In this document: positions 34,588 to 48,193 of the stretch, one piece after another
How the letters are laid out: the number at the start of each line of letters is the position of its first letter
How positions within the stretch are numbered: the stretch's first letter is position 1
Origin: a virus
Virus record (IMG/VR): IMGVR_UViG_3300032284_001133
Coordinates: 1 to 64,000 of that record
DNA length: 64,000 nt
Reading direction: 5' to 3' (one strand)
Notes under the pieces: generated by a model
Seen by the model: the letters and a program-made list of their open reading frames with translations, nothing else
Told to the model about the DNA's origin: nothing
The model's database searches: none
Program-made: the position numbers and the translations under genes

Positions 34588-34904
34588 TAAACAAGTATAA
34601 GAATATCTATAGTGAGTTAATTGTAGCCTTAACTGAGCTACACAATGCTCATCTAGATTATCTTGAAGGACCAAATATAAGAAAATCTAGAGATCTTAAA
34701 AAGAAAATTAAAAGTCTAACACCTAAGTTAAAAAATTTACTCAATATTGTAACAGATGTCAATAAAGAAGTAACCAAGCGAGACAGAGGAATATATCCAA
34801 GAATACCAAATGATCCCAATTTGTTGACTCCGGAATTTCACGAATGGGTAAGTAAAGGACTAGGTAGAGTTAATAAATTTACACCAAAAGGAAAAAAGAA
34901 ATGA
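34584..34904 (+). CDS. Hypothetical basic protein (106 aa)
   Basis: ATGA overlaps with both neighbours; Lys-rich helical composition. Confidence 0.6.
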   Translation: MINKYKNIYSELIVALTELHNAHLDYLEGPNIRKSRDLKKKIKSLTPKLKNLLNIVTDVNKEVTKRDRGIYPRIPNDPNLLTPEFHEWVSKGLGRVNKFTPKGKKK

Positions 34905-35095
34905 ATTCACAAGCAGAACTATTAGCGGCTTATCAATCCTATATGGAAGAAAACGCCAAATTTGAAAAAGGCAACAATGCGGCCGGTACTCGTGCTCGCA
35001 AGGCATTGGCAGACATGGGCAAGGCTGTAAAAGGTCGCCGCAATGAAATTACTGAAACTAAAAATGCCCGTAAAGAAGAAAAGGTCACAAAGTAA
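34901..35095 (+). CDS. Histone H1-like Hc1 family small protein (64 aa)
   Basis: KFEKGNNAAGTRARKAL...RRNEI matches the Hc1 N-terminal domain pattern (KGNKAAAxRxR). Confidence 0.75.
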   Translation: MNSQAELLAAYQSYMEENAKFEKGNNAAGTRARKALADMGKAVKGRRNEITETKNARKEEKVTK

Positions 35096-35250
35096 TGTTC
35101 CATCTAAGAGAAGAAGGCCAGGTAGTACGTAACGGATTTAACTTTTACAAGTTGTCCGATAAAAGTAATGCTGGTTTTATTTTTAGATTAGGAACAAAAT
35201 TTTTTACACTTAGGTATTCTAAAATAAGGAAGACCTGGATTATTGGATGA
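35095..35250 (+). CDS. Small hypothetical protein (51 aa)
   Basis: Below the ORF-track cutoff; MFHLREEGQVVRNGFNFYKLSDKSNAGFIFRLGTKFFTLRYSKIRKTWIIG fills the gap exactly, with TAATG and ATGA overlaps at its ends. Confidence 0.7.
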   Translation: MFHLREEGQVVRNGFNFYKLSDKSNAGFIFRLGTKFFTLRYSKIRKTWIIG

Positions 35251-35672
35251 CTTGGACTTTTCAAGGTACTTTAGTTGAAGAACTCCCCGAAGACTGTGTT
35301 GGGTTTGTGTATCTAATAACCAATACAATCACAGGACGCAAGTATATTGGCAAAAAATTGGCAAAATTTGCAAAAACAACATATAAGACTATAAAATTAA
35401 AAAACGGTAACAAGAAAAAGAAGAAAATTAGAGGCAAAATAGAAAGCGACTGGAAAACATATTACGGTTCAAACATAGAATTAAACAAAGACGTAGAAAC
35501 CTTAGGCACAAATAACTTCACTAGAGAAATATTACATTATTGTAAAAGTAAAGCAGAAACATCTTACATTGAGGCCCGTGAACAATTCGACCGCAAAGTA
35601 TTAGAATCAGATGACTACTATAACGGACATATACAAGTTCGTGTACATGGCTCACACATTATAAAATCTTAG
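35247..35672 (+). CDS. Stand-alone GIY-YIG family nuclease (141 aa)
   Basis: GFVYLITNTITGRKYIGKK motif, basic insertion, ESDWKTYYGS, conserved Glu (YIEAREQF) and YYN. Confidence 0.85.
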   Translation: MTWTFQGTLVEELPEDCVGFVYLITNTITGRKYIGKKLAKFAKTTYKTIKLKNGNKKKKKIRGKIESDWKTYYGSNIELNKDVETLGTNNFTREILHYCKSKAETSYIEAREQFDRKVLESDDYYNGHIQVRVHGSHIIKS

Positions 35673-35689
35673 GCATATAATCGGTAATA

Positions 35690-36115
35690 AGCTCGCACCT
35701 GCTAATTTCGGGTGCCCAAAAATCTGGACTTAGAGTCGCAGGGATGGAAACCTCTTGCCGAAAAGAGTACTCAACTACTATCCTTTACAGGACGTCGATC
35801 GCAAATTGCCGCGGTTTAGTTGTTTGAAAAGAGTTAAAAAGGCCTAATGAAGGGAGAAAAACCCTACGTTTACATTTATGATAGCGTATATTTGTAAACC
35901 GCCGTTGAATGAAGACGGAGCTCGTGGTACCGGTCAACCGCCACTGTAATGCTCTAACGCTGTGTGACTTGTTGAACTCAGATAATGTCATTTTTTCGCC
36001 CGGCAGGGCGAAGTGTGACCATAGAATCTAGATAATATCTTAAACACTTCGTGTTTTCAATGTTAAAAAAATGCTTTGAGCTGAAAGCGAAAAAGCAAAT
36101 GAGCGCAAGCTCATT
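35690..36115 (+). ncRNA. Candidate large structured non-coding RNA (family not recognised; strand inferred)
   Basis: Largest intergenic gap in the window; about 46% G+C by hand count over 35691-36020; about 12 consecutive or nested helices with G-U pairs on the plus strand and a terminal GCAA tetraloop. Confidence 0.6.
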
Positions 36116-36157
36116 ATCAAACATAAATAAATTTAATGTTCTTTTGAGGAATGAAAT

Positions 36158-36850
36158 ATGCGAATTGCTGAAATTATTGTAGAATCTGATTTAAATGAAG
36201 GTCCTGCTTGGGATGCTATTAAACAAGGTGCGGGTGCCGTAGGTAGTGCTGTAAAACAAGGAGCTCAAGCTCTTGGTAAAGGTGCTGTAGCCACAGGTAA
36301 AGCCGTAGGCAAGTATGGCCCTGGTGTAATTCAAGGTGCAGGTAATTTAGCTACTAATGTTGCTCATCAAGCAGGTAACGTTGCTAGTACTTTAGGTACT
36401 GGTGTTGGTAGAACAGCAGGTGGATTATTAGGTGGTATTAAGCAAGGATGGGATCAAGCAAGGGGTAACCCTACAGGTGCTAATCAAGTTCCGTCAGCAG
36501 TTCCTCCACAACAACCAAATAATCCAAACATCGCTAATTCACAAGGTGCAAATCAGACACAAGGCGGTAATCAGTCTCAAGGTGTTACACAACAAGCACC
36601 AAATGCTCAGCAGGCCGCAAGTGGAGCTCAACCAACTCCTCAAAGTATTAAATCTCAAATTTCTGCTAAACAAAAACAGATGAAAGCGTTGCAAAAAGAG
36701 TTAAATGGTCTGCAAAAAATGTTAACTCCTAAACAACCAGCTACAACTACTCAGCCTAATCTTCAGGTTCAACAAGGCGGAATAGCACCTTCGGGAAACC
36801 AAGCCACAGGCGAAGGCTTTGAAAGTAAATTTTTAGGAATGACGATTTAA
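36158..36850 (+). CDS. Hypothetical low-complexity protein, probable head-internal protein (230 aa)
   Basis: TAAATA at 36124-36129 and GAGGA SD; N-terminal MRIAEIIVESDLNEG carries I/L-x-E sites like gp21-cleaved proteins; Gly/Ala/Gln-rich. Confidence 0.65.
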   Translation: MRIAEIIVESDLNEGPAWDAIKQGAGAVGSAVKQGAQALGKGAVATGKAVGKYGPGVIQGAGNLATNVAHQAGNVASTLGTGVGRTAGGLLGGIKQGWDQARGNPTGANQVPSAVPPQQPNNPNIANSQGANQTQGGNQSQGVTQQAPNAQQAASGAQPTPQSIKSQISAKQKQMKALQKELNGLQKMLTPKQPATTTQPNLQVQQGGIAPSGNQATGEGFESKFLGMTI

Positions 36851-37070: not shown

Positions 37071-37937
37071 TTAAGCGAAAAAAGTTGATGCATCAAATAT
37101 CAAAGGAATTTCGATAGGTTTATCTTCAACTCCACCTGCTAGCATTGCAGGAGTTGGATTAATAGTCAATGAGCTAATAGTATTTTGCTCTCTCAATACA
37201 TCTAAATGATTTTTAACTTTATCAAAAATTTCTTTATCTGAGTTCTCCATAAACTCTTTTATAAACACAGGATCATCTGTACTTCCTTGACTAGATTCAA
37301 TTTTGTATACACAATCAGTAATAATGCCAACTGCTACTCTGTTGAGTTTATCAAAAGATTCTTTAAACAGTTTTAATTTGTCTTCTTCCTTCATTTCCGA
37401 GCTATTGGCAATTTGCATGATCTTTTGTGTTTCAAAACTTTGTAAAGCACTTTCGGTCATTTTTCTGTAATTGATTGGTTTAACAAAAACTGTAAGATCT
37501 TGATTAATAGCAACTGCATCTTCCCAAGAAACTTTTCCTGCTAGATCAGACATTACTGATCTTAAATCAACATCATATTCGTAATCTGAATCGCCTGTAT
37601 CAATAGGAACAGCCATACGTTCACCATATGTAGCTATACGTATTGCCATTAAGATAGTGTCAACATCTAAATTTGGAGCTTCCCATGCATTTTTAATATT
37701 AGGCATACAACTTTGCATAAGATCAACAATAGCCTGTCCGTTAAGTAATGCATCGGGAATTTTAATTAAAAGTTCATCTTTAGCAGTCATTGAATATACA
37801 GGATACTCGCCTGTTTCACTTACTACTAGACTACCTTCTGGCCAAAAACGTCCTCCGCTAGGCAATTTAATATAAATTTTAGGTTGACGCATTAATCCTG
37901 CTAGTGGATTATTTTTTAATTTTGGTTGTGTAATCAC
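37071..37937 (-). CDS. Baseplate hub/tail assembly chaperone, gp26-like (288 aa)
   Basis: Likely true start GTG 37937 with GGAGA SD and TAAATA at 37983-37978; RQPKIYIKLPSGG, PVYSMTAKDEL, DVDTILMAIRIATYGE motifs; ends STFFA. Confidence 0.85.
   Translation of the reverse strand: MITQPKLKNNPLAGLMRQPKIYIKLPSGGRFWPEGSLVVSETGEYPVYSMTAKDELLIKIPDALLNGQAIVDLMQSCMPNIKNAWEAPNLDVDTILMAIRIATYGERMAVPIDTGDSDYEYDVDLRSVMSDLAGKVSWEDAVAINQDLTVFVKPINYRKMTESALQSFETQKIMQIANSSEMKEEDKLKLFKESFDKLNRVAVGIITDCVYKIESSQGSTDDPVFIKEFMENSDKEIFDKVKNHLDVLREQNTISSLTINPTPAMLAGGVEDKPIEIPLIFDASTFFA
37077..37083 (-). other. Putative programmed -1 ribosomal frameshift site (T TTT TTC)
   Basis: ACT TTT TTC GCT TAA; the -1 frame continues TTT CGC TTA AGG CTT TTG AAC CTC AGC ATG into ORF 36847-37065. 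Confidence 0.75.
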
Positions 37938-47202: not shown

Positions 47203-47281
47203 GTTAAATACAGTGTCTAGATTATTATGCTGTACCCACAGCGTAGGGCCTAGAACGCTCATAATTCAAAGGAGAAACAAA

Positions 47282-48193
47282 ATGGGACGTCCTCTAAAAA
47301 AGAGATATTTTTTAAAAAATAATACACCTTCTGATGTAGTAAAATACGAAGGTGTTACAGTAAGCATCAATTCTAATGGTACTGGTTACTCAACCGGTGC
47401 TGTAGCAAAATTTTCAGCACCACAAGATGCCGCAGGTGTTACAGCAACATTAGGCTTAACAATTACTCCAGCAGGTGGAATTACTGCCGCTAGTATTACT
47501 AACGTTGGTTCTGGTTATAATGCCGCCCCAACAGTTACAGTAACTCCAGCCGCTACACAAAATAACACAGCAGTAGCAACTTCTTCAAGTTTCACACTTA
47601 CAAACGTTTCTGGTGTAAACGGAATTTATCCAGGTATGTTAGTTAGTGGTTGGAGCGGATTAACAGCTTTCTCGCATGTTGCTAGTGTAGGTACAAATAC
47701 AATTACACTTGATAAAGCTATTACTGCTTCAGGTGGCTCTACTGGAACTAGTGTAACATTTAGCTATTCTGATACAGGTACTGGTGCTACATTTACAGTT
47801 GGACTAACACCAACTGAAATTCTTCCAGGTACTATTGCGGCAACAGCATACTTAACAACAGGTTCAGGTGCTGTAACTTCTGCTATTATTAAACAAGAAG
47901 GCTCACGTAGCTATCTAGTTGAAAATACACAAGGCCGTGGCCGTGTTAAATTGGCTACAACTGATGCTTTAACAGCAGGTACAATGAAAATTATTGCTAC
48001 CGACGGAGCAGGTTCTACGTATTATGTAAAAAAATTAACTGCACGTAAAGTTTCTTTAGTTAGTCGTACAAACACAAGTACAGGAGTAATTACTTTAACC
48101 AGTGATGGTACTTATACTGTTGGTACAGCAAAATGGACTGCAGGTGTAGCAACAGGTACACAACAAGTTACTATTGGTACAAATACAATTTAA
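47282..48193 (+). CDS. Thr/Gly-rich virion structural (decoration-type) protein (303 aa)
   Basis: Start ATG 47282 (MGRPLKK) after AAGGAG; own TAAATA at 47205-47210; GxGY..AP.V repeats. Confidence 0.75.
   Translation: MGRPLKKRYFLKNNTPSDVVKYEGVTVSINSNGTGYSTGAVAKFSAPQDAAGVTATLGLTITPAGGITAASITNVGSGYNAAPTVTVTPAATQNNTAVATSSSFTLTNVSGVNGIYPGMLVSGWSGLTAFSHVASVGTNTITLDKAITASGGSTGTSVTFSYSDTGTGATFTVGLTPTEILPGTIAATAYLTTGSGAVTSAIIKQEGSRSYLVENTQGRGRVKLATTDALTAGTMKIIATDGAGSTYYVKKLTARKVSLVSRTNTSTGVITLTSDGTYTVGTAKWTAGVATGTQQVTIGTNTI

What the first reader, a model, noticed from the sequence alone, without database searches (positions are those of the whole stretch)
35673..36120. ~430-nt helix-dense non-coding element directly after a minimal GIY-YIG nuclease: candidate undescribed large phage RNA
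Seen: in a genome whose genes abut or overlap, this is the longest gap, yet it is GC-richer (about 46% over 35691-36020) than its surroundings and pairs almost end to end: GCACCTG/CGGGTGC (35695-35715); GACT/AGTC (35727-35737); CTCTT/AAGAG (35752-35767); a 3-way junction closed by CAACTA/TAGTTG (35772-35822) holding TCCT/AGGA and GATCGC/GCGGTT; AGGG/CCCT (35851-35865); GTTTACA/TGTAAAC (35868-35899); CCGTT/GACGG (35902-35918); nested GAGC/GCTC, GTGG/CCAC, CGGT/ACCG (35918-35954); TTCGCCC-GGCA-GGGCGAA (35995-36012); AAACAC/GTGTTT (36042-36056); TGCTTT/AAAGCA (36072-36097); AATGAGC-GCAA-GCTCATT (36098-36115). Mismatches are mostly G-U on the plus strand, which points to an RNA in that sense. A TATAAT at 35676-35681 lies just before the first helix (weak -35). 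I could not match it to tRNA, tmRNA, RNase P, SRP or group I/II intron signatures. Inference: a structured ncRNA, either the partner of the upstream nuclease or a replication primer/origin RNA.
Basis: partly seen in the sequence, partly recalled or inferred. Interest (0 to 1): 0.88.

Follow-up and report, generated by a model that had tools for sequence, protein, structure and literature searches.

The report
Full-length twin-box (Polynucleobacter-1) phage RNA
The gene-free stretch behind a small nuclease gene of this uncultured T4-like freshwater phage encodes a real, knotted non-coding RNA of about 435 bases; its first third is an orphan motif catalogued in 2010, and the uncatalogued rest carries one 7-letter word twice for a purpose that is still unknown.

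Summary
Window 35681-36115 (+) is one conserved structured RNA. Its first 136 nt (35690-35825) match Rfam RF01718, Polynucleobacter-1, at 111.7 bits (cut-off 37); the other ~300 nt match no Rfam family. I found 190 copies in the 266 viral loci fetched, plus 4 in 151 Burkholderiales genomes. On 111 distinct copies, a 101-pair structure with four pseudoknots has 90.6% of cells paired, against 36-46% when partners are slid, and 83 of 101 pairs show two-sided changes. It is not coding. Two single-stranded boxes (ACUC+AGAUAAU at 35976-35986, AUCU+AGAUAAU at 36026-36036) flank a hairpin. Their 7-mers are identical in 169 of 169 copies, although ten different words occur. No complementary or extra copy of the word turned up in the RNA, the flanks or whole genomes. 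The GIY-YIG gene lies directly upstream in 147 of 151 loci, but it is replaced or displaced in others, is absent next to the bacterial copies (which sit in defence islands beside a DUF6641 gene), and does not co-vary with the word. So this is a self-standing RNA, not shown to be a nuclease guide or origin primer. Its function is unknown. This scan has already found the same RNA family on other DNA. It is a new variant of a known orphan motif.

The parts
35247..35672 (+). 141-aa stand-alone GIY-YIG nuclease gene (catalytic domain only). It is the usual but replaceable upstream neighbour, and its stop codon lies 8 nt before the RNA.
   Evidence: Pfam SegE_GIY-YIG, E 8.9e-34, residues 3-129 on profile 1-123/123. 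PHROG phrog_447, E 8.6e-38. Directly upstream of the RNA in 147 of 151 loci.
35681..36115 (+). Full-length twin-box / extended Polynucleobacter-1 RNA, about 435 nt.
   Evidence: nhmmer found 190 hits in 266 loci, 140 of them full length. On 111 sequences, 101 pairs are 90.6% paired against 35.6-46.2% when slid, and 83 pairs show two-sided changes. No coding signal.
35690..35825 (+). 5' domain, equal to the Rfam RF01718 Polynucleobacter-1 motif (helices P1-P6).
   Evidence: cmscan 111.7 bits, cut-off 37, E 2.6e-25, model positions 1-141 of 141.
35681..35685 (+). 5' strand of pseudoknot P0, pairing with 35757-35761 in the loop of hairpin P3. It lies outside the Rfam model.
   Evidence: Pair 35683/35759 is GC in 68 and AU in 32 sequences; helix 93.4% paired.
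35868..35899 (+). Long hairpin P8/P8b. Its loop 35881-35887 forms pseudoknot PK-A with 35957-35963.
   Evidence: All 7 PK-A pairs covary, 98.7% paired, for example CG 85 / UA 26.
35904..35954 (+). Core of the 3' domain: pseudoknot PK-B (35904-35908 with 35934-35938) threaded through helices P10 (35918-35921/35951-35954) and P11 (35924-35927/35941-35944). It contains the near-invariant GGUACCGG...ACCGCC.
   Evidence: Pair 35906/35936 is UA 63 / CG 48. Pair 35918/35954 is GC 45 / CG 41 / UA 20. Helices are 96-99.8% paired.
35976..35986 (+). Box A: ACUC followed by the 7-letter word AGAUAAU (word at 35980-35986), preceded by GUGAC at 35964-35968.
   Evidence: Word identical to box B in 169 of 169 loci, with ten different words. 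Columns 35980/36030 read AA 48 / GG 63.
35995..36012 (+). GC-rich hairpin P12 (UUCGCCC-GGCA-GGGCGAA) between the two boxes.
   Evidence: Compensatory variants are visible in the alignment, such as UUAGCCCG/CGGGCUAA and UUCUCCCG/CGGGAGAA. MAFFT mis-registers it in the large alignment.
36026..36036 (+). Box B: AUCU followed by the same word AGAUAAU (word at 36030-36036), preceded by GUGUGAC at 36013-36019.
   Evidence: The box starts are 47-60 nt apart across loci.
36045..36115 (+). 3' hairpins P13 (36045-36053), P14/P15 (36072-36097) and the terminal hairpin P16 (36098-36115).
   Evidence: P16 pairs covary, for example AU 49 / GC 48 and AU 52 / GC 45, and are 93-95% paired.
36124..36129 (+). 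TAAATA, the core of a T4-type late promoter just after the RNA. It probably serves the next gene (36158-36850).
   Evidence: TAAATA lies within 260 nt after box B in 112 of 143 distinct tails, mostly directly after P16. That this motif is the T4 late promoter is recalled knowledge.

Best explanation
Window 35681-36115 (+) is a full-length member of the RNA family whose 5' third Rfam lists as Polynucleobacter-1. It is a self-standing, ~435-nt, multiply pseudoknotted non-coding RNA of uncultured T4-like freshwater giant phages. Shown: its homology, its structure, its strand, its non-coding nature, and two identical single-stranded 7-letter boxes on either side of a hairpin. Inferred: it is transcribed as the tail of the nuclease mRNA, because only 8 nt separate the stop codon from the first helix and no promoter is conserved there. 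Inferred: it ends at hairpin P16, upstream of the next gene's own late promoter. Inferred: it acts in trans as a folded scaffold (a ribonucleoprotein or ribozyme-like RNA) that presents the two boxes to one and the same outside reader, or to each other through strand transfer. Because the same RNA sits in bacterial defence islands, the likeliest arena is phage-host conflict. The GIY-YIG gene is best read as a Seg-like endonuclease gene that habitually lodges beside stable-RNA genes, not as the RNA's working partner.
For: Rfam match of 111.7 bits. The 3' 332 nt are 72-82% identical in 43 of 44 true motif loci. There are 190 nhmmer hits, 140 of them full length. Covariation: 90.6% of cells paired against 35.6-46.2% when slid, 83 of 101 pairs with two-sided changes, 0 of 500 shuffles reaching the observed values. 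Not coding: every sense frame has at least 2 stops, and there is no codon periodicity. Boxes are identical in 169 of 169 loci. The word changes at least 45 times on the RNA tree, always in both boxes, while the columns between the boxes are not linked to them (next-best corrected mutual information 0.12). A late-promoter core follows the RNA in 112 of 143 tails. Nuclease replaced or displaced: L085, L248, L170, L093, L021. All four bacterial copies carry the 3' domain and twin boxes with other words. They lie beside Zorya genes plus an integrase, or beside SNF2/methylase/ResIII genes, and a divergent DUF6641 gene is present in 3 of 3 loci with enough flank. A nuclease homologue in cyanophage S-SM2 sits directly upstream of a tRNA cluster.
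Against: No transcript evidence exists: no RNA run holds the stretch, so the ends and the co-transcription are inferred. No reader was found. The nuclease is present in 147 of 151 loci and abuts the RNA, a far tighter link than is usual for a mobile endonuclease gene. The defence-island context rests on only two loci with long flanks. The whole stretch folds only about 2 sd better than shuffles on either strand.
Confidence: 0.55

Rival explanations
1. The RNA is the working partner (guide or cofactor) of the minimal GIY-YIG nuclease, which lacks a DNA-binding domain. This would resemble HEARO/omega RNAs with IscB or TnpB.
For: The nuclease gene lies directly upstream in 147 of 151 loci, 8 nt from the RNA. 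The protein is only the catalytic domain, 141 aa, matching 123 of 123 profile positions.
Against: L085 has a PD-(D/E)XK endonuclease (PF24608, E 2.5e-29) in that place. L248 and L170 have 1.4 kb and 0.8 kb of other genes in between. The 3 bacterial loci with enough flank have no such gene beside the RNA and carry a DUF6641 gene upstream instead. Four cultured phages with the nuclease (39-55% identity) have no RF01718 within 1.5 kb. No nuclease column tracks word position 1: the best mutual information is 0.16 of 1.00 bit over 94 protein/word combinations. All phage loci are syntenic, so no flank-derived guide can be read.
Confidence: 0.1
2. It is a cis-regulatory element, either a 3' UTR controlling the nuclease mRNA or a leader of the downstream gene, as the 2010 catalogue tentatively marked the motif.
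For: Table 1 of Weinberg et al. 2010 marks the motif 'cis-reg? y' (I saw passages only). It directly abuts the upstream ORF.
Against: A late-promoter core lies between the RNA and the next gene in 112 of 143 tails. Downstream genes differ between phage clades and between bacteria, and so do upstream genes. About 435 nt with four pseudoknots is far more than known UTR elements need.
Confidence: 0.1
3. It is an origin of replication or a primer RNA, with the two boxes acting as iteron-like direct repeats.
For: It sits between the recombination nuclease genes (SbcC-like) and the baseplate hub genes. It has direct repeats about 50 nt apart with a hairpin between them.
Against: Compensatory changes preserve RNA pairing throughout, including G-U pairs that would be A-C on the other strand. 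There are only two repeats, with fixed differences (ACUC against AUCU). The family also sits on bacterial chromosomal islands.
Confidence: 0.07
4. It is an antitoxin-like or decoy RNA built of two tandem modules (GUGAC, spacer, box, hairpin), each cut or bound by one sequence-specific endoribonuclease, as in type III toxin-antitoxin pairs.
For: Two roughly 50-nt modules of the same layout. Identical words co-change in both. The bacterial copies lie in defence islands.
Against: The modules are embedded in a much larger conserved fold. The downstream ORFs are unrelated to each other (BLASTP found no alignment) and match no Pfam or PADLOC family. No toxin candidate was found.
Confidence: 0.08

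Closest known systems
Polynucleobacter-1 RNA motif (Rfam RF01718; Weinberg et al. 2010, Genome Biol 11:R31, PMC2864571)
   Same: Window 35690-35825 matches the whole 141-position model at 111.7 bits. The habitat is the same (fresh water, Burkholderiales), and I recovered it in 4 of 151 Burkholderiales genomes.
   Different: The catalogued motif is only the first third. A 5' pseudoknot strand (35681-35685) and about 290 nt of 3' domain, with two more pseudoknots and the twin boxes, are present in the phage copies and in all four bacterial copies examined but are not in the model. The paper's details are in supplementary files that I could not open.
DRT2 defence ncRNA with ACA-1/ACA-2 template-jumping motifs (Tang et al., bioRxiv 10.1101/2024.05.08.593200; passages read)
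   Same: It is a pseudoknotted ncRNA in which two short words must be identical, not complementary, so that a nascent strand copied from one can re-anneal at the other. It belongs to the defence-island setting.
   Different: Here the words are 7 nt or longer rather than 3 nt, and the unit is 47-60 nt with no preference for multiples of three (41 of 150). No reverse transcriptase gene lies next to the RNA. RVT_1 was found in 0 of 5 phage records, 3 of them at least 99% complete.
HEARO / omega RNAs of IscB and TnpB (recalled, not tested by any search)
   Same: A large structured RNA sits next to a small nuclease gene.
   Different: The neighbour is replaceable, no variable guide segment was found, and the nuclease does not co-vary with the boxes.
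T4 SegB, a GIY-YIG homing endonuclease gene lodged in the tRNA gene cluster (recalled)
   Same: A Seg-type GIY-YIG gene sits beside stable-RNA genes. A homologue of this window's nuclease sits directly upstream of five tRNA genes in Synechococcus phage S-SM2.
   Different: Here the gene is nearly universal (147 of 151 loci) and syntenic, not sporadic. No homing was tested.
ToxI-type (type III) antitoxin RNAs (recalled)
   Same: Tandem repeat modules with one recognition word each, in a phage-defence setting.
   Different: There are only two modules, they are not identical, they are embedded in a 435-nt fold, and no toxin gene was identified.

Membership tests
Rfam RF01718 Polynucleobacter-1 | Covariance-model score at or above the curated gathering score (37 bits) over the whole model | tested here: met
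   111.7 bits, model 1-141 of 141, E 2.6e-25
Rfam RF01718 Polynucleobacter-1 | The model's helices (P1-P6) kept by compensatory changes in homologues | tested here: met
   Helices 4, 5, 7, 8, 10 and 11 are 85-99.7% paired and have two-sided changes.
Guide RNA of an RNA-guided nuclease (omega-RNA-like) | Obligate pairing of the RNA with one nuclease family | tested here: not met
   L085 has a PD-(D/E)XK nuclease instead. The 3 bacterial loci with enough flank have a DUF6641 gene upstream instead.
Guide RNA of an RNA-guided nuclease (omega-RNA-like) | A variable guide segment that matches a target | tested here: not met
   The variable word has no complement or extra copy in the flanks (142 against 134.6 expected; 114 against 122.2), in the RNA (115 against 127.4), or in whole genomes.
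DRT2-type template RNA | A reverse transcriptase encoded with the RNA | tested here: not met
   RVT_1 found in 0 of 5 phage records, 3 of them at least 99% complete.
DRT2-type template RNA | Two identical words bounding a template unit | tested here: met
   Identical in 169 of 169 loci, 47-60 nt apart.
DRT2-type template RNA | Unit length a multiple of three, giving a stop-free repeat frame | tested here: not met
   41 of 150 units are multiples of three.
Group I / group II introns, RNase P, tmRNA, tRNA | Match to the family model | tested here: not met
   No Rfam match at E<=10 other than RF01718 and sub-threshold noise. ARAGORN found 0 genes.
Protein-coding gene | Conserved open frame and third-position variation | tested here: not met
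   Median of 9-10 stops per sense frame. Entropy by codon position is flat (0.768/0.759/0.774 and similar).
Type III toxin-antitoxin RNA | An adjacent endoribonuclease toxin gene | tested here: inconclusive
   The downstream ORFs match no Pfam or PADLOC family and are unrelated between phage and bacterium.

The most novel reading that the evidence does not exclude
The two boxes are donor and acceptor sites for programmed strand transfer. A polymerase copies the roughly 50-nt unit between them, and the nascent strand made on one box re-anneals on the other, as with ACA-1/ACA-2 in DRT2. Identity is then demanded without any complementary partner, whatever the word is. On this reading the RNA is a template for tandem-repeat synthesis on bacterial defence islands, and the phage copy is either the same device turned against rivals or a decoy that captures a host defence polymerase.
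Probability: 0.05. Interest if true: 0.9.

Novelty: new variant of a known kind. Interest (0 to 1): 0.6.

Why it matters
Few bacterial or phage RNAs larger than 400 nt and rich in pseudoknots remain unexplained, and those that were solved turned out to be ribozymes or the cores of ribonucleoprotein machines. This one is abundant. The RNA is shared between giant T4-like lake phages and defence islands of small Burkholderiales genomes. It also carries an unusual signal: two words that must be identical rather than complementary. Showing that the catalogued motif is only a third of the RNA corrects the public model. It also gives experimenters defined elements to mutate: box A alone, box B alone, or both together.

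Tried and rejected
Expression. The look-up of sequencing runs listed no RNA holder: 7 runs, all DNA or guessed DNA, and only one held at least half of the sampled words. I did not lay reads.

Cultured relatives. blastn of 35673-36157 found no match in 50,697 phage records.

Promoter motif. The box is not a genome-wide motif: 2 matches against 1.04 expected.

Complement of the word:
- The exact reverse complement in about 1.4 Mb of flanks was seen 114 times, against 122.2 expected from the other word classes. Sense copies were seen 142 times against 134.6.
- A G-U-tolerant complement inside the RNA was seen 115 times against 127.4. The recurrent GUUGUUU is invariant and not word-specific.
- For an extended complement within 3.5 kb downstream, the mean best distance was 4.31 against 4.29 for controls, over 95 loci.
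- A designed wobble 'common reader' of both boxes gave 12 matches in the window against 7.86 expected, none within 2 mismatches apart from the boxes' own antisense.
- Whole-genome counts in five records were at control level. The four extra exact 11-mers lie in unrelated coding regions, and two of them are the same homologous site.
- The freshwater-2 leader at 47207-47284 shares only the palindrome UCUAGAU with box B.

'Sense codon plus UAA/UGA stop' reading of the word, and a gene-60-style ribosome hop. I rejected these. The bacterial words are AGCGAAA, GGCGAAAG and AGCGAUG. No frame is conserved upstream of box A, by my own reading of the alignment. Every sense frame has stops.

tRNA match to the word's first triplet. 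This is not discriminating, because the complete genomes carry 16-27 tRNA genes each.

'Fast-evolving word'. In my data, 0 of 198 RNA pairs at 90% identity or more differ in the word. The changes lie deeper in the tree (a quick tree, so 45 changes is a parsimony count on a weakly tested topology).

It was found in 0 of 5 phage records. Ten further DUF6641 loci (L433-L442), in other genomes or elsewhere in the RNA-bearing ones, have no RF01718 at E<=1.

Scan of genome contigs.

Single-box copy L062. Its deletion end points are not at the boxes, so it says nothing about slippage.

Literature. 'Polynucleobacter-1' is held by 1 paper. 'RF01718' is held by 3 papers, of which I saw two only as listings. 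A four-term search on structured RNA, GIY-YIG, phage and noncoding RNA listed nothing on this RNA among the 20 papers shown out of 210.

Full report
WHAT IS THERE. The window is part of an 84,060-bp IMG/VR virus record that CheckV rates 23% complete. The stretch lies between a 141-aa ORF (35247-35672) and a 230-aa ORF (36158-36850). The 141-aa ORF is a GIY-YIG catalytic domain and nothing more: Pfam SegE_GIY-YIG at E 8.9e-34, covering 123 of 123 profile positions, and PHROG phrog_447. Upstream lie an SbcC/gp46-like ATPase and an Hc1-like protein. Downstream, on the other strand, lies a baseplate-hub-like gene. GC over 35691-36020 is 46.4%, against 35.8% for the window.

A KNOWN MOTIF, BUT ONLY A THIRD OF THE RNA.
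- Cmscan at curated thresholds gives two matches in the window. RF01718 Polynucleobacter-1 lies at 35690-35825 (+) with 111.7 bits (cut-off 37), over the whole model. RF02980 freshwater-2 lies at 47207-47284.
- With permissive filters and E<=10 on 35500-36300, nothing else exceeds 17 bits.
- ARAGORN finds no tRNA or tmRNA.
- The only relevant paper in the library is Weinberg et al. 2010. Its Table 1 lists the motif as a likely RNA, possibly cis-regulatory, from Burkholderiales and fresh water or estuary. Its description is in supplements that I could not open.

HOMOLOGUES.
- A 20-nt pattern from the motif found 58 viral stretches. By sequence, 44 are true motifs and 14 are chance.
- The 332 nt downstream of the Rfam match are 72-82% identical in 43 of these 44. 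The 44th contig ends too early.
- An nhmmer profile found 190 copies in the 266 loci held, 140 of them full length. Nearly all partial hits sit at contig ends.
- After removing near-duplicates (96% identity or more), 110 representatives plus the window were aligned.

STRUCTURE.
- RNAalifold on a first set of 23 sequences predicted 71 pairs, 35 of them with compensatory changes.
- Corrected mutual information on the 111-sequence alignment recovered the local helices and four long-range pairings. These are 35681-35685 with 35757-35761; 35690-35692 with 35701-35703; the loop 35881-35887 with 35957-35963; and 35904-35908 with 35934-35938.
- My 101-pair structure has 90.6% of 11,021 cells paired, against 75.8% in column shuffles (0 of 500 shuffles reach the observed value) and 35.6-46.2% when partners are slid by 1-3 columns.
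- In that structure 83 pairs have two-sided changes, and the covariation score is 0.428 against 0.06-0.08 for the slid versions.
- Frequent G-U pairs fix the plus strand as the RNA strand.
- Single-sequence folding alone is weak evidence, with z between -1.9 and -3.1.
- The region is not coding. Each sense frame has at least 2 stops (median 9-10). The longer antisense open stretches show no codon-position pattern.

ENDS.
- The first covarying strand starts 9 nt after the stop codon.
- The scan tool finds no plus-strand terminator after the last hairpin.
- TAAATA, which I recall as the core of the T4 late promoter, follows the last hairpin in 112 of 143 distinct tails.
- I therefore infer, but have not shown, co-transcription with the nuclease gene and an end at P16.
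- No RNA sequencing run holds the stretch.

THE TWIN BOXES.
- Two modules of the same layout (GUGAC, a short variable spacer, A-YYY, a 7-letter word) flank hairpin P12.
- In the window they read ACUC-AGAUAAU (35976-35986) and AUCU-AGAUAAU (36026-36036).
- The word is identical in both boxes in 169 of 169 loci where both could be found. Ten words occur, and the box starts are 47-60 nt apart.
- The two positions just before A-YYY also tend to agree, whereas CUC against UCU is a fixed difference.
- On a quick tree built without the box columns, the word changes at least 45 times. Position 1 changes 28 times, in both boxes every time.
- The columns that lie physically between the boxes are not linked to them. 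Linkage or gene conversion of a tract is therefore an unlikely cause.
- More distant copies keep the layout with quite different words: AGGAUAAU and AUGAAGAG in two divergent viral loci, and AGCGAAA, GGCGAAAG (twice) and AGCGAUG in bacteria.

WHO READS THE BOXES? I found no reader.
- The word and its complement are not enriched in about 1.4 Mb of flanks: 142 against 134.6 expected, and 114 against 122.2.
- A wobble-tolerant complement is not enriched inside the RNA: 115 against 127.4.
- There is no conserved third site downstream.
- A designed common complement has no good match in the window.
- Counts in five whole records, three of them at least 99% complete, are at control level, and the few extra copies lie in unrelated genes.
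- No column of the nuclease protein tracks the word.
- The idea that the word is a sense codon followed by UAA or UGA fits all ten phage words but fails on the bacterial ones.

THE NUCLEASE.
- It is directly upstream in 147 of 151 loci with enough sequence, at 57-100% identity, and all phage loci share one gene order.
- L085 carries a PD-(D/E)XK endonuclease in its place. L248 and L170 have a radical-SAM gene or other genes inserted between nuclease and RNA. L093 and L021 have other ORFs.
- Homologues (38-55% identity among the 40 records listed) occur in 454 deposited phage records, mostly T4-like cyanophages.
- Four of these were inspected (Melnitz-3, phiM12, S-SM2, ACP17). They have no RF01718 within 1.5 kb, and in S-SM2 the gene sits just upstream of five tRNA genes.
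- This resembles what I recall of T4 segB in the tRNA cluster. It suggests an endonuclease gene that lodges beside stable-RNA genes.

BACTERIAL COPIES.
- RF01718 was found in 4 of 151 sampled Burkholderiales genomes, all 1.7-1.9 Mb and unnamed. All four have the 3' domain and twin boxes.
- Two loci have long flanks. One lies next to ZorB, ZorC and ZorD (PADLOC E values from 2.9e-86 to 0) and a tyrosine recombinase. The other lies next to an SNF2 helicase, a DNA methylase and a ResIII protein.
- A DUF6641 gene lies divergently, right upstream of the RNA, in 3 of 3 loci with enough flank.
- DUF6641 occurs in 8 of the 151 genomes, in 16 copies. Ten further DUF6641 loci have no such RNA, and the phages lack the family altogether.

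READING. The RNA is real, large and elaborately folded. It does not depend on the nuclease, and it is shared by phages and defence islands. The identity rule for the boxes calls either for one outside reader that co-evolves with them or for a process in which a strand copied from one box must anneal at the other. The second has a precedent in the ACA-1/ACA-2 motifs of DRT2 RNA (passages read). However, no reverse transcriptase is encoded in these phages, and the unit length shows no frame. I therefore keep it as the bold reading at about 5%.

EARLIER WORK OF THIS SCAN. The same family has been reported many times on other DNA, as the 'twin-box' or 'full-length Polynucleobacter-1' RNA. I reached the structure, the boxes and the Rfam match before looking. 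The bacterial-island lead came from those notes, and I tested it here.

VERDICT. This is a new variant (the full-length form) of a known orphan motif, and its function is unknown.

Noticed in passing
window 47207-47284 (+): Rfam freshwater-2 RNA (56.8 bits, cut-off 49.9) sits just after a TAAATA and just before an AAGGAG Shine-Dalgarno and ATG. Its first hairpin is degenerate in this copy.
   Followed up: partly
window 34901-35095 (+): A 64-aa ORF matching the chlamydial histone-like Hc1 family (E 6.6e-12) lies two genes upstream of the nuclease.
   Followed up: no
window 37232-37245 (+): A 13-of-14 match to the reverse complement of extended box A lies inside the baseplate-hub-like gene. It is not conserved in other loci, so it is probably chance.
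   Followed up: partly
window 35781 and 35793: Two columns in the P5 region switch together between U...C and C...U (65 against 46 sequences) without forming a standard pair. These are two alternative forms of this small hairpin.
   Followed up: no
L062:8266-8644: One viral copy lacks about 66 model positions: the 3' strand of pseudoknot PK-A, box A and hairpin P12. It keeps only box B. It is either a natural deletion or an assembly fault.
   Followed up: partly
L394 (Synechococcus phage S-SM2, GU071095.1 140298-141819): The homologue of this nuclease is split into two annotated ORFs, one labelled 'sodium:alanine symporter'. It is followed at once by five tRNA genes.
   Followed up: partly
phage records: The 141-aa GIY-YIG family (phrog_447) is widely annotated as 'NAD synthetase' in deposited phage genomes. 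This looks like a propagated mis-annotation.
   Followed up: no
G001-G004 (complete or near-complete relatives, 262-365 kb): These giant phages carry 16-27 tRNA genes each, clustered far from the RNA.
   Followed up: no
L430:8873-9340, L431:8839-9273, L427:1466-1966: DUF6641 genes lie divergently next to each bacterial copy of the RNA. The family is multi-copy (up to 4 per genome) in small Burkholderiales genomes.
   Followed up: partly
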